64,000 bases of DNA from NCBI GenBank assembly GCA_001781125.1, contig MFKT01000001.1, positions 3,630-67,629 of the forward strand, written 5' to 3'. The position numbers were made by a program, and so were the translations under genes. Of this stretch, positions 3,215 through 3,550 are shown one piece after another; position 1 is the stretch's first letter, and every line of letters begins with the position of its first letter. The DNA is from Candidatus Kaiserbacteria bacterium RIFCSPHIGHO2_01_FULL_53_29. Its GTDB lineage: Bacteria > Patescibacteriota > Minisyncoccia > Phycocordibacterales > UBA2100. The notes beneath the pieces are model-generated. The model was given only the letters and a program-made list of their open reading frames with translations. It was not told where the DNA came from and ran no database searches.

Positions 3215-3550
3215 ATGCAATCGTTGGTCAAGATTGTCGTAAAGATAGGACTATACGCCGCAGTCGCGGTCGGGGCGTTCATCATATCTCTTTTCATCGG
3301 CGGGCGCAGTACGGGCCACGTTTCTGACGGACAGCACGTTGAACTTCAGACGGGCTTTCAGATAGCGCATGCCGAAGCGCCGCCGATAGTTGATAGCGAC
3401 GACGACGATAGCGACGACGACGATAGCGACGGCGGCGGCGGCGGCGATGACGATTGCGGCGACAGTGACGATGATGGCGACGACGATGATGGCGACGACG
3501 ATGACGACGATGACGACGATGACGACGATGACGATGACGACGACGGCTGA
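3215..3550 (+). CDS. Small membrane-anchored protein with an extreme poly-aspartate (D/S/G) C-terminal tail
   Basis: The N-terminal hydrophobic helix (KIGLYAAVAVGAFIISLFIGG) is followed by about 50 residues that are almost entirely Asp. The minus-strand alternative would be poly-Ser/poly-Ile without a membrane anchor. Confidence 0.45.
   Translation: MQSLVKIVVKIGLYAAVAVGAFIISLFIGGRSTGHVSDGQHVELQTGFQIAHAEAPPIVDSDDDDSDDDDSDGGGGGDDDCGDSDDDGDDDDGDDDDDDDDDDDDDDDDDG
3391..3548 (+). repeat. GAC/GAT trinucleotide-rich low-complexity run (Asp codons)
   Basis: Direct reading shows (GACGAT)n-like repeats with occasional AGC/GGC interruptions. Confidence 0.8.

What the first reader, a model, noticed from the sequence alone, without database searches (positions are those of the whole stretch)
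3215..3550. A membrane-anchored protein with a roughly 50-residue poly-aspartate tail encoded by a GAC/GAT microsatellite
The ORF has a single N-terminal TM helix and then an almost pure Asp run with Ser/Gly punctuation. Such tails bind divalent cations and mineral surfaces, as in calsequestrin-like or biomineralisation proteins, and are prone to length variation by slippage. The antisense frame (poly-Ser/Ile) lacks any anchor, so the plus strand is favoured.
Basis: seen in the sequence. Interest (0 to 1): 0.5.

Follow-up and report, generated by a model that had tools for sequence, protein, structure and literature searches.

The report
Poly-aspartate membrane peptide in a CPR bacterium
A real small gene in a groundwater "Candidatus Kaiserbacteria" genome encodes a membrane-inserted peptide ending in an almost pure aspartate tail; it is an extreme member of an undescribed family whose relatives look like precursors of azole-modified peptides, but its function is untested.

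Summary
The ORF at 3215-3550 (+) is real and reads as described: one N-terminal membrane helix, then 38 Asp in the last 52 residues. It is not an orphan. I found 26 distinct small ORFs, each immediately upstream of a homologue of the next gene (3566-4681, a membrane-anchored TPR-like protein). All share the same plan: a basic N-terminus, one TM helix, a 12-29-residue linker, an A-x-A-[D/E]-x-P motif, and an acidic Gly/Ser/Asp/Cys tail with a conserved Cys-Gly. Most also share a TATCC(A/C)CA box and a -10-like box just upstream of the ATG.

In most relatives a SagD-like YcaO and a SagB dehydrogenase sit alongside and the tails are Cys-rich, as expected of azole-peptide (LAP) precursors. This locus and its closest subfamily lack those enzymes; their tails have only 1-2 Cys.

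Best reading: an exported, possibly cleaved, polyanionic peptide that works with the TPR-like partner at the cell surface. Cation binding is plausible but untested. There is no calsequestrin homology, and no repeat-length variation in at least 15 contigs that span the repeat. I rate it a new variant of a known kind, of moderate interest.

The parts
3164..3171 (+). TATCCACA box, which matches 8 of the 9 bases of the DnaA-box consensus TTATCCACA. It ends 43 nt upstream of the ATG and is a candidate operator or activator site.
   Evidence: A TATCC[AC]CA-type box lies 40-62 nt upstream of the small-ORF ATG in 18 of 22 distinct related loci. Background density is 0.048 per 120 nt. In the 64-kb window the composite box-N26-34-TAKAMT occurs only here, against 0.04 expected.
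3200..3208 (+). TGcTATACT, an extended -10-like promoter element that ends 6 nt before the ATG. It implies a leaderless or very short-leader mRNA.
   Evidence: The sequence is. A TATACT/TATAAT-like hexamer lies 6-15 nt upstream of the ATG in most related loci. The generic promoter scan did not call it because no -35 hexamer is present.
3215..3550 (+). The gene: a 111-aa pre-peptide, coordinates including the stop codon.
   Evidence: ORF. It was called as a gene on 12 contigs from at least 5 assemblies. It has homologues in 25 other distinct sequences.
3245..3304 (+). Transmembrane or signal-anchor helix, residues 11-30. The N-terminal flank has 2 Lys and no acidic residue.
   Evidence: Hydropathy and flank charges are. 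Across the family the N-terminal flank holds 2-5 Lys/Arg and 0-2 Asp/Glu, and the tails have almost no Lys/Arg. By the positive-inside rule this implies N-in/C-out.
3365..3382 (+). Conserved junction motif A-H-A-E-A-P, residues 51-56. The A-x-A fits the -3/-1 rule of signal peptidase I, so a putative cleavage would fall after Ala53.
   Evidence: Ala53 is invariant in 26 of 26 sequences. It is followed by Asp or Glu in all 25 members that show the motif, and Pro is usual at +3. The exception is the L016 member (VYAEVG), which MAFFT misaligns. Cleavage is inferred, not shown.
3374..3547 (+). Acidic tail or 'core', residues 54-111: 38 Asp, 1 Glu, 9 Gly, 4 Ser, 1 Cys, net charge -39.
   Evidence: Tails of all 26 family members are net negative and low-complexity. 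Pooled composition is G 29%, D 18.5%, S 16%, A 9%, C 9%.
3392..3545 (+). Composite in-frame tandem DNA repeat with periods 15, 3 and 9.
   Evidence: TRF; perfect tracts. Tails of relatives L021 and L037 are likewise built from 12/24/36-bp in-frame repeats.
3455..3457 (+). Codon of Cys81, the only Cys in the tail, followed by Gly.
   Evidence: This alignment column is Cys in at least 90% of the 26 sequences, and the next column is Gly in at least 70%.
3566..4681 (+). Partner gene 'F371': an N-terminal TM helix plus an all-helical TPR-like superhelix. It starts 15 nt after the small ORF.
1659..2954 (+). 'M431': a polytopic membrane protein with 6 invariant Cys and a C-terminal non-membrane domain. 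Function unknown.
   Evidence: It recurs in related loci at 46-57% identity (L006, L016, L020) and in L019. It has no Pfam, NCBIfam or PDB sequence match. The single-sequence AF2 model is unusable (pLDDT 47).
2966..3160 (+). A 64-aa single-TM protein that travels with M431.
   Evidence: Homologous small ORFs follow M431 in L006 and L016. No family match.
4687..5475 (+). Membrane-anchored TPR protein of 262 aa.
   Evidence: Pfam TPR families at E down to 2e-14. Homologues are present in most related loci.
5472..7511 (+). A 679-aa signal-anchored protein with Cys-rich repeats. It appears to belong to the same apparent operon.
   Evidence: ORF. Partial homologues sit at the same position in L014 and L016. 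No family match.
2..1552 (-). Divergently oriented PQQ-like beta-propeller protein, cut off by the window start.
   Evidence: tblastn gives 45% identity to the L016 propeller. The protein is 587 aa in L001 and recurs in most related loci. The L016 homologue has an N-terminal phosphoribosyltransferase-like domain.

Best explanation
Window 3215-3550 encodes a small bitopic pre-peptide. It belongs to an uncurated family found so far only in CPR bacteria (Paceibacterota, including 'Ca. Kaiserbacteria').

Proposed steps:
1. The gene is transcribed from its own promoter as a leaderless or short-leader mRNA, together with the next gene. The promoter consists of a conserved TATCCACA box and a -10-like TATACT just before the ATG.
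2. The product inserts N-in/C-out through its single hydrophobic helix.
3. The 58-residue tail (net charge -39, one conserved Cys-Gly) therefore ends up on the outer face of the membrane.
4. The invariant A-x-A|[D/E]-x-P junction is the boundary between a leader/anchor and a variable 'core'. It is probably a processing or recognition site.
5. Outside the cell, the polyanionic segment works with the co-expressed membrane-anchored TPR-like protein (3566-4681) and the other surface proteins of the operon. Its most likely role is as a fixed or released polyanion that binds divalent cations or a basic or mineral surface.

Evolutionary placement: it is the YcaO-less sister of peptides that, in related genomes, lie next to SagD-like YcaO and SagB enzymes and look like precursors of linear azole-containing peptides. 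Tails in the family change fast through in-frame tandem duplication. The poly-Asp tail is the extreme product of that process.

Status of each claim:
- Shown: the gene, the family, the architecture, the synteny, the absence of YcaO from the window, and the conserved upstream element.
- Inferred: topology, cleavage, interaction with the TPR partner, and cation binding.
For: Real gene on the + strand:
- The ORF fills the 3160-3566 gap in a same-strand gene array.
- 26 distinct homologues keep the start, the TM helix, the motif and the frame.
- A profile of the N-terminal halves recovers family members at E 1e-11 to 1e-18 in 5.8 billion proteins.

Coupling to the partner gene:
- A family member lies directly upstream of the F371 homologue in every locus with enough upstream sequence. 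The stop-to-start gap is -13 to +30 nt.

Topology:
- N-terminal flanks hold 2-5 Lys/Arg and tails almost none.

Junction and tail:
- Ala53 is invariant, the next residue is Asp or Glu in all 25 members that show the motif, and Cys81 is at least 90% conserved.

Relation to azole-peptide systems:
- In relatives the neighbours are a SagD-family-like YcaO (TIGR03604, E about 1e-55) and a SagB-family dehydrogenase (TIGR03605, above the curated cutoff).
- YcaO/nitroreductase LAP clusters with an adjacent putative precursor have been reported in 93 CPR genomes (PMC7298704).
- The window has no YcaO, SagB, DsbA-like or rhodanese gene in 64 kb.
- Tails in YcaO loci carry more Cys (median 5) than tails in loci without YcaO (1-2). 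Mann-Whitney p = 0.0015.
- The YcaO-less state is shared by L006, L016, L022 and L040. The first three have N-termini like this ORF's (MQxxLKK...Y) yet only 26-36% identity, so the state is old and maintained.

Expression signal:
- The TATCC[AC]CA box is present in 18 of 22 loci, with a -10-like hexamer 6-15 nt from the ATG.

Tail evolution:
- The tails are built from in-frame tandem repeats here and in L021 and L037.

Precedent:
- Bufferins are Sec-signal-bearing, exported, metal-binding RiPPs (PMC12452194).
Against: - There are no expression or proteomic data.
- Topology and cleavage rest only on rules of thumb; no SignalP/TMHMM-type predictor was available.
- The A-x-A site lies 12-29 residues beyond a 20-residue hydrophobic stretch. 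That is atypical for signal peptidase I, which normally cuts 3-7 residues after a 7-15-residue h-region. Cleavage may therefore be done by another protease, or may not happen.
- If the sister peptides really are modified by cytoplasmic YcaO enzymes, their tails must stay in the cytoplasm for a time. That is awkward for a signal-anchored peptide.
- Tail charge against partner ectodomain charge shows only a weak, non-significant trend (rho -0.37, p = 0.07).
- Cation binding is pure physico-chemical inference.
- YcaO could be encoded elsewhere in this genome, outside the 64-kb window.
- The Cys/YcaO statistic ignores the relatedness of the loci.
Confidence: 0.5

Rival explanations
1. It is a true RiPP precursor. 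Residues 1-53 are a leader (an unusual, signal-peptide-like one) and residues 54-111 are a core. The core would be chemically modified by enzymes not yet recognised (the neighbouring M431 membrane protein with its 64-aa partner, or a YcaO encoded elsewhere in the genome), then exported and released as a bioactive peptide acting on the host or on competitors.
For: - Homologous peptides sit beside SagD-like YcaO and SagB enzymes.
- Tail composition tracks the neighbouring enzyme. Cys-rich tails go with YcaO. The Pro/Gly-rich tail of L012 sits next to a 2OG-Fe(II) oxygenase with a weak hit to a peptide-maturation oxygenase.
- The sharp conserved junction followed by a hypervariable C-terminus is the classic leader/core pattern.
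- Signal-peptide-bearing RiPPs exist, namely the bufferins (PMC12452194).
- M431 and the 64-aa gene are conserved neighbours in this subfamily.
Against: - No recognisable modifying enzyme lies in the locus or in the 64-kb window.
- The core has 1 Cys, 4 Ser and no Thr, so it is a poor azole substrate.
- M431 also co-occurs with YcaO (L019, L020), so it is not a substitute for it.
- M431 has no detectable enzyme family.
- The system sits next to ribosomal-protein operons in tiny genomes and is widely conserved. That fits a housekeeping envelope role better than a niche antibiotic.
Confidence: 0.25
2. It is a decaying relic of an azole-peptide precursor. After the YcaO/SagB genes were lost, the core was freed from selection and was overrun by tandem-repeat expansion. 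The ORF would then be expressed but functionless, or on its way to loss.
For: - YcaO and SagB are absent here but present in most relatives.
- The tail DNA is visibly the product of recent tandem duplication: perfect 40- and 41-nt repeat tracts.
- The poly-Asp sequence itself is not conserved in any relative.
Against: - The YcaO-less subfamily (window, L006, L016, L022, L040) has diverged to 26-36% identity. It still keeps the start, TM helix, junction motif, acidic tail, the single Cys-Gly, the tight coupling to F371 and the upstream box.
- All repeat periods are multiples of three and the frame is intact.
- The sequence is identical in at least 15 contigs from several assemblies.
Confidence: 0.1
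3. It is not a gene on this strand. Either the repeat is an intergenic mini/microsatellite, or the coding strand is the minus strand (the poly-Ser or Val/Ile-rich ORFs).
For: - Long antisense ORFs run through the repeat (3251-3562 and 3358-3711).
- The protein was not retrieved as its own hit in the large protein search, and its exact sequence is missing from the clustered collection.
- No Shine-Dalgarno sequence precedes the ATG.
Against: - Protein-level conservation of the + frame N-terminus, motif and Cys holds across 26 sequences whose tails have unrelated DNA.
- Gene callers call the + ORF on all contigs.
- The 117-aa antisense ORF overlaps the conserved F371 start by about 146 nt.
- A conserved promoter-like element lies on the + strand.
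Confidence: 0.02

Closest known systems
Putative precursor peptides of the YcaO/nitroreductase (LAP, TOMM-type) clusters reported in CPR genomes (Sharrar et al. 2020, PMC7298704)
   Same: - Homologues of this ORF in related Paceibacterota loci lie next to a SagD-like YcaO and a SagB-family dehydrogenase and have Cys/Ser-rich C-termini.
- The length (75-135 aa) and the position beside YcaO match the reported 84-aa putative precursor.
   Different: - This locus and its subfamily have no YcaO or SagB nearby (none in 64 kb).
- The core is poly-Asp with a single Cys.
- The 'leader' is a membrane helix with an A-x-A junction, not a soluble leader.
- I could not check whether the published precursor belongs to this family, because its sequence appears only in a figure.
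Bufferins and other MNIO-modified RiPPs with Sec signal peptides (PMC12452194)
   Same: - Both are small Cys-containing precursors with an N-terminal export signal in place of a classical leader.
- Both are exported to the extracytoplasmic space.
- Bufferins act by chelating metal ions, a role also plausible for an acidic, Cys-bearing tail.
   Different: - No MNIO (DUF692) or DUF2063 partner is present among the neighbours.
- There is no sequence similarity.
- The hydrophobic segment here is longer, and the junction lies far from it.
- The bufferin metal ligands are Cys-derived thiooxazoles, not carboxylates.
Mms6 with the TPR protein MamA in magnetosomes (PMC5613248)
   Same: - A small membrane-associated protein with an acidic C-terminal region is paired with a TPR scaffold protein that binds it.
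   Different: - No homology to Mms6 was shown.
- Mms6's acidic region is short and mixed (Asp/Glu) and faces the magnetosome lumen.
- The window has no magnetosome genes.
- The F371 match to MamA is generic TPR similarity.
Eukaryotic poly-Asp biomineralisation and Ca-storage proteins: aspein (PMC9496343) and the calsequestrin tail
   Same: - Both have a signal sequence followed by long poly-Asp with Ser/Gly punctuation.
[quoted passage not shown]
- Aspein binds Ca2+.
   Different: - These proteins are eukaryotic and unrelated in sequence; there are no Pfam hits.
- Calsequestrin is defined by thioredoxin-like domains that are absent here.
- Nothing indicates mineralisation by this organism.

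Membership tests
Unnamed CPR family of signal-anchored acidic pre-peptides (defined here, alignment A7) | Basic N-terminus followed by one hydrophobic helix of about 20 residues | tested here: met
   Residues 1-30. Hydropathy is 2.29 and the N-terminal flank has 2 Lys. The family range is 2-5 Lys/Arg.
Unnamed CPR family of signal-anchored acidic pre-peptides (defined here, alignment A7) | [A/V]-x-A-[D/E]-x-P junction 12-29 residues after the helix | tested here: met
   AHAEAP at residues 51-56. Ala53 is invariant in 26 of 26 sequences.
Unnamed CPR family of signal-anchored acidic pre-peptides (defined here, alignment A7) | Net-negative low-complexity tail with a conserved Cys-Gly near the C-terminus | tested here: met
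   Net charge is -39. Cys81-Gly82 aligns with a column that is at least 90% Cys.
Unnamed CPR family of signal-anchored acidic pre-peptides (defined here, alignment A7) | Gene lies immediately upstream of an F371 (TM + TPR-like) homologue and has an upstream TATCC[AC]CA box | tested here: met
   The gap to 3566 is 15 nt. The box is at 3164-3171.
LAP / TOMM (azole-containing RiPP) precursor | Encoded beside a YcaO cyclodehydratase (SagD family) | tested here: not met
   tblastn with three YcaO proteins from relatives finds nothing in the 64-kb window. The rest of the genome was not available.
LAP / TOMM (azole-containing RiPP) precursor | SagB-type FMN dehydrogenase in the cluster | tested here: not met
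   No hit in the window. It is present in relatives (TIGR03605).
LAP / TOMM (azole-containing RiPP) precursor | Core rich in Cys/Ser/Thr as heterocyclisation sites | tested here: not met
   The core has 1 Cys, 4 Ser and 0 Thr in 58 residues.
LAP / TOMM (azole-containing RiPP) precursor | Azole or azoline rings in the mature product | not testable with these tools
   This needs mass spectrometry of the native or co-expressed peptide.
Sec-type secretory protein cleaved by signal peptidase I | Positively charged n-region, hydrophobic h-region, and A-x-A at -3/-1 with no Pro at +1 | tested here: met
   Lys6 and Lys10; residues 11-30 are hydrophobic; A51-H-A53 is followed by Glu.
Sec-type secretory protein cleaved by signal peptidase I | Cleavage site 3-7 residues after a 7-15-residue h-region (established knowledge of signal peptides) | tested here: not met
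   The h-region is about 20 residues and the A-x-A site ends 23-24 residues after it. The correctly anchored family range is about 12-29.
Calsequestrin / calsequestrin-like | Thioredoxin-like domains (Pfam Calsequestrin) preceding the acidic tail | tested here: not met
   No Pfam family at E <= 0.01 for this protein or for 25 of its 26 relatives. The single hit among them is YxzE, E 4e-4.
Bufferin-type MNIO RiPP | Adjacent MNIO (DUF692) enzyme and DUF2063 partner | tested here: not met
   Pfam scans of all neighbouring genes show neither.
Mms6-like biomineralisation protein | Sequence homology to Mms6 and a magnetosome gene context | not tested
   No Mms6 sequence or model was compared. Only the architectural analogy and generic TPR similarity of the partner to MamA were noted.

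The most novel reading that the evidence does not exclude
A CPR-wide cell-surface system that sits beside ribosomal-protein operons and is controlled by a DnaA-box-like operator. In it, signal-anchored RiPP-like peptides with fast-evolving acidic tails, azole-modified in some lineages and unmodified in others, are presented by membrane-anchored TPR scaffolds. The Kaiserbacteria version would be a genetically encoded polyaspartate serving as a protein substitute for anionic wall polymers: cation capture, surface charge, or attachment to host or mineral surfaces. That would be a new functional class of bacterial envelope component, and a second case after the bufferins of RiPP-like peptides routed through the general secretion pathway.
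Probability: 0.2. Interest if true: 0.7.

Novelty: new variant of a known kind. Interest (0 to 1): 0.48.

Why it matters
CPR bacteria are tiny, uncultured episymbionts, and their surface biology is largely unknown. This work turns an odd-looking ORF into a defined family with testable features:
- 26 members;
- an invariant junction motif and a conserved tail Cys;
- an obligatory TPR-like partner gene;
- a conserved upstream operator.

The family also links to the YcaO clusters already noticed in CPR genomes. It suggests that those 'LAP clusters' may be part of a broader, conserved envelope system rather than sporadic antibiotic clusters. It further indicates that the peptide can function without azole formation.

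A natural 17-residue Asp run on an exported bacterial peptide would also be a useful model for polyanion-cation chemistry at cell surfaces. The function remains inferred, so this is a lead and not a discovery.

Tried and rejected
1. A direct search with the full 111-aa protein found only compositional poly-Asp matches at E > 0.3.
2. An exhaustive phmmer search with the N-terminal 64 residues found only a truncated copy, P0014, and a spurious repeat protein.
3. P0014 (locus L015) looked like a strain variant. The alignment shows a degraded contig end running into poly-C, so I discarded it.
4. The first genome-contig scan with the single partner protein found nothing. The 9-sequence alignment had no usable conserved stretch. 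A 5-sequence alignment worked.
5. Function of M431:
   - There are no Pfam, NCBIfam or PDB sequence hits.
   - The single-sequence AlphaFold model has pLDDT 47 and is unusable, so no fold search was run on it.
   - An HTTM/gamma-carboxylase-like or GT-C-like identity was considered. It could not be tested and is not claimed.
6. Repeat-length variants:
   - P0005, a 99% variant of the partner, is not in the contig index.
   - All contigs carrying the exact partner show the same repeat length wherever they span it.
7. Charge complementarity between the tail and the partner ectodomain is weak and not significant.
8. The generic sigma-70 scan did not call a promoter upstream of the ORF. The conserved elements were found only by comparing loci.
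9. Prepilin-type, lipoprotein and C-terminal sorting signals were considered and rejected on inspection of the sequence.
10. A phage or defence context was not pursued, because the flanks are ribosomal-protein genes, SecY, FtsH and RecG.
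Full report
**1. The observation**

The ORF at 3215-3550 (+) exists and translates to 111 aa:

MQSLVKIVVKIGLYAAVAVGAFIISLFIGGRSTGHVSDGQHVELQTGFQIAHAEAPPIVDSDDDDSDDDDSDGGGGGDDDCGDSDDDGDDDDGDDDDDDDDDDDDDDDDDG.

- Residues 11-30 are an uncharged hydrophobic stretch preceded by two Lys.
- The last 52 residues hold 38 Asp, and the longest Asp run is 17.
- Asp makes up 4.4% of residues in long ORFs of the window, so this is not a chance composition.

The DNA is not a simple GAC/GAT microsatellite. It is a composite of a 15-bp unit x2.7 (3392-3431), (GGC)5 and a 9-bp unit x4.5 (3494-3534). All are in frame, and there are 24 GAC and 14 GAT codons.

**2. Source and setting**

The neighbouring protein is GenBank OGG54195.1 from a 'Candidatus Kaiserbacteria' bacterium. 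The same locus occurs in several groundwater assemblies, including the Rifle 'ANAN16' set.

The window is ordinary chromosome: rplC-rplD-rplW-rplB just downstream, plus SecY, FtsH and RecG.

The ORF sits in a tight same-strand array:
- a 431-aa polytopic membrane protein (1659-2954);
- a 64-aa single-TM protein (2966-3160);
- the ORF itself;
- a 371-aa protein (3566-4681);
- a TPR protein (4687-5475);
- a 679-aa protein with Cys-rich repeats (5472-7511);
- a 156-aa protein;
- then rplC.

A PQQ-like beta-propeller gene lies divergently upstream.

**3. It belongs to a family**

Searches with the ORF itself failed because of its composition.

The downstream 371-aa protein ('F371') has homologues at 27-39% identity. 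I fetched their contigs and made further scans of genome and metagenome collections. A small ORF lies directly upstream of F371 in every locus that has enough upstream sequence. A profile of their N-terminal halves retrieved further members at E 1e-11 to 1e-18.

In all there are 26 distinct sequences of 75-135 aa. They share:
- a basic N-terminal flank (2-5 Lys/Arg, 0-2 acidic residues);
- one hydrophobic helix;
- a linker of 12-29 residues;
- the motif [A/V]-x-A-[D/E]-x-P, with the Ala before the acidic residue invariant;
- a net-negative, low-complexity tail with almost no Lys/Arg, whose pooled composition is G 29%, D 18.5%, S 16%, A 9%, C 9%;
- a Cys that is at least 90% conserved and usually followed by Gly. 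The single Cys81 of this protein aligns with it.

None of the 26 matches a Pfam or NCBIfam family convincingly.

The gap between the small-ORF stop and the F371 start is -13 to +30 nt in 24 loci. That argues for co-expression.

These data settle the strand and the reality of the gene. They also show that the poly-Asp sequence itself is lineage-specific. What is conserved is the acidic, low-complexity character of the tail, the Cys and the junction.

**4. Tails evolve by in-frame tandem duplication**

Other tails in the family include:
- (SDSG)n in L021;
- ADSA/DSGT/DAGA repeats in L037;
- poly-Gly in L022;
- Pro/Gly-rich tails in L012, L013 and P0021;
- Cys-Gly-rich tails in many others.

TRF finds 12/24/36-bp repeats in L021 and L037.

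**5. Context in relatives**

Most related loci carry a YcaO protein and a dehydrogenase next to the small ORF:
- the YcaO is closest to the SagD family (TIGR03604, E about 1e-51 to 1e-55, just below the curated cutoff);
- the dehydrogenase is SagB-family (TIGR03605, above the cutoff).

This is the enzyme pair of linear azole-containing peptides. YcaO/nitroreductase clusters with an adjacent putative precursor have been reported in 93 CPR genomes (PMC7298704).

The window has no YcaO, SagB, DsbA-like or rhodanese gene in 64 kb. Loci L006/L023, L016, L022, L040 and L012 also lack YcaO within 5-7 kb.

Tails in YcaO loci carry 1-10 Cys (median 5). Tails in YcaO-less loci carry 1-2. Mann-Whitney p = 0.0015, not corrected for relatedness.

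The window, L006, L016 and L022 share an N-terminus of the type MQxxLKK...Y but only 26-36% identity. The YcaO-less state is therefore old, and the gene has been kept without the azole enzymes.

L012's Pro/Gly-rich tail sits next to a 2OG-Fe(II) oxygenase (PF13640). That protein also has a weak hit to a peptide-maturation oxygenase. This is another case of tail composition tracking a neighbouring enzyme.

The 431-aa membrane protein recurs with YcaO (L019, L020) and without it (L006, L016) at 46-57% identity. Its function could not be determined.

**6. The partner protein**

An AlphaFold model of F371 built from a 9-sequence alignment is confident (pLDDT 87, pTM 0.82). After the N-terminal TM helix it is entirely helical.

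A membrane-anchored TPR scaffold next to, and probably co-translated with, a small peptide suggests that the scaffold binds the peptide. That is an inference. Tail charge and partner charge correlate only weakly (rho -0.37, p = 0.07).

**7. Expression signals**

I compared the 60-120 nt upstream of the small ORFs. A TATCC[AC]CA box lies 40-62 nt before the ATG in 18 of 22 distinct loci. In many loci it reads TTATCCACA, the DnaA-box consensus. The background density is 0.048 per 120 nt.

A TATACT/TATAAT-like hexamer lies 6-15 nt before the ATG. In the window this reads TATCCACA (3164-3171), then 31 nt, then TGcTATACT (3200-3208), then 6 nt, then the ATG. The composite occurs nowhere else in the 64 kb, against 0.04 expected.

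This fits a dedicated promoter and a leaderless or short-leader mRNA on the + strand. No terminator separates the ORF from the downstream genes. The identity of the factor that binds the box is unknown.

**8. Population data**

The exact protein is on 12 contigs. Contigs carrying the exact partner add three more that span the whole repeat (L043-L045), all with the same length. Two carry point differences only (H35P and L44I near a contig end; G111C).

Seven or eight contigs end inside or beside the ORF (L015, L043-L049). This is what assemblers do at repeats, and it could hide minor heterogeneity. No length variant was observed. These samples probably represent a single population.

**9. Mechanism**

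By the positive-inside rule the helix inserts N-in/C-out, which puts the tail outside. An acidic tail is also compatible with export.

The invariant A-x-A followed by an acidic residue fits the -3/-1 rule of signal peptidase I. However, the site lies 12-29 residues beyond a 20-residue hydrophobic segment, which is atypical. Cleavage is therefore plausible but uncertain, and the motif may instead be a recognition element for the TPR partner or for another protease.

I commit to the following model:
- It is an exported polyanionic peptide, anchored or released, that works with the TPR-like partner at the cell surface.
- Binding of divalent cations, or of a basic or mineral surface, is the most likely activity.

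My probabilities for the individual steps:
- real gene and family membership: about 0.95;
- exported tail: about 0.7;
- cleavage at Ala53|Glu54: about 0.4;
- cation binding as the selected function: about 0.4.

The main rival (0.25) is a true RiPP precursor modified by unrecognised enzymes or by a YcaO encoded elsewhere. A decaying relic (0.1) is disfavoured because the YcaO-less subfamily is deeply conserved. Non-coding or minus-strand readings are essentially excluded.

**10. Comparison with known systems**

| Known system | What it shares | Why this is not a member |
|---|---|---|
| CPR LAP precursors (PMC7298704) | The closest relationship by descent | The defining features were tested here and not met: no YcaO, no SagB, and no Cys/Ser/Thr-rich core |
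| Bufferins (PMC12452194) | Closest precedent for a RiPP-like peptide with an export signal and a metal-binding role | No MNIO enzyme or DUF2063 partner |
| Mms6-MamA (PMC5613248) | Analogous pairing of a small acidic membrane protein with a TPR scaffold | No homology shown |
| Aspein (PMC9496343) and calsequestrin | Chemical analogies for poly-Asp | No homology |

**11. Verdict**

The gene is a new, extreme variant within an uncurated family that is linked to a known kind of system, the CPR YcaO clusters. Interest is moderate. The family definition, the obligatory TPR partner, the YcaO-less subfamily and the conserved DnaA-box-like operator are new, testable leads. The function is still inferred.

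Noticed in passing
window 3164-3171; related loci L006-L041, 40-62 nt upstream of each small ORF: A box matching the DnaA-box consensus (TTATCCACA / TATCC[AC]CA) is conserved at a fixed distance upstream of the small ORF in 18 of 22 distinct loci. It is not a general promoter element in the window (4 matches in 64 kb against 1.8 expected). It may be an operator for DnaA or for another regulator.
   Followed up: partly
L012 4377-5144 (-) and 5720-5995 (+); L013 308-568; P0021: A subfamily of these peptides has Pro/Gly/Ser-rich tails with two Cys. In L012 the peptide sits next to a 2OG-Fe(II) oxygenase (prolyl-hydroxylase-type Pfam family, with a weak hit to a peptide-maturation oxygenase), a short-chain dehydrogenase and a sulfotransferase, instead of YcaO/SagB. 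This suggests a different modification chemistry on the same scaffold.
   Followed up: partly
window 5472-7511 (+): A 679-aa signal-anchored protein contains about six repeats of a Cys-rich module (KYSCN..NQC..D..G.Y..S.C...CG) and has no family match. Partial homologues occupy the same operon position in L014 and L016. CARDB/PKD proteins occupy that position in L012 and L013.
   Followed up: partly
window 1659-2954 (+) and 2966-3160 (+): A conserved pair: a 431-aa polytopic membrane protein (6 invariant Cys, invariant His/Asp/Lys/Glu residues, C-terminal non-membrane domain) and a 64-aa single-TM protein. There is no match in Pfam, NCBIfam or PDB sequences, so this appears to be an uncharacterised family.
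   Followed up: partly
window about 10930-11520 (L001 14605-15200): A MazE/PemK toxin-antitoxin pair lies inside the ribosomal-protein gene array, right after rplB. An NTP_transf_2/HepT pair lies upstream of the locus in L001.
   Followed up: no
window 7537-8729: rplC is preceded here by this surface-protein operon and not by rpsJ (S10). In relative L006 the S10 gene lies elsewhere, near tuf. In other relatives the same operon sits next to rpmE and prfA. The system therefore repeatedly neighbours translation genes.
   Followed up: no
L015 about 5150-5288; L043-L049 contig ends: Seven or eight independent contigs terminate inside or beside the small ORF, and one (L015) decays into erroneous sequence and poly-C. 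The repeat evidently breaks short-read assemblies, so this gene is likely to be missing or truncated in many MAGs.
   Followed up: yes
window 50308-52701 (+): A 797-aa protein combines a cupredoxin/plastocyanin-like copper-binding domain with PKD repeats. It is another probable surface protein of this organism.
   Followed up: no
L016 3831-5489 (-) and homologues, including window 2-1552 (-): The conserved PQQ-like beta-propeller protein carries an N-terminal orotate-phosphoribosyltransferase-like domain, which is an unusual fusion.
   Followed up: no
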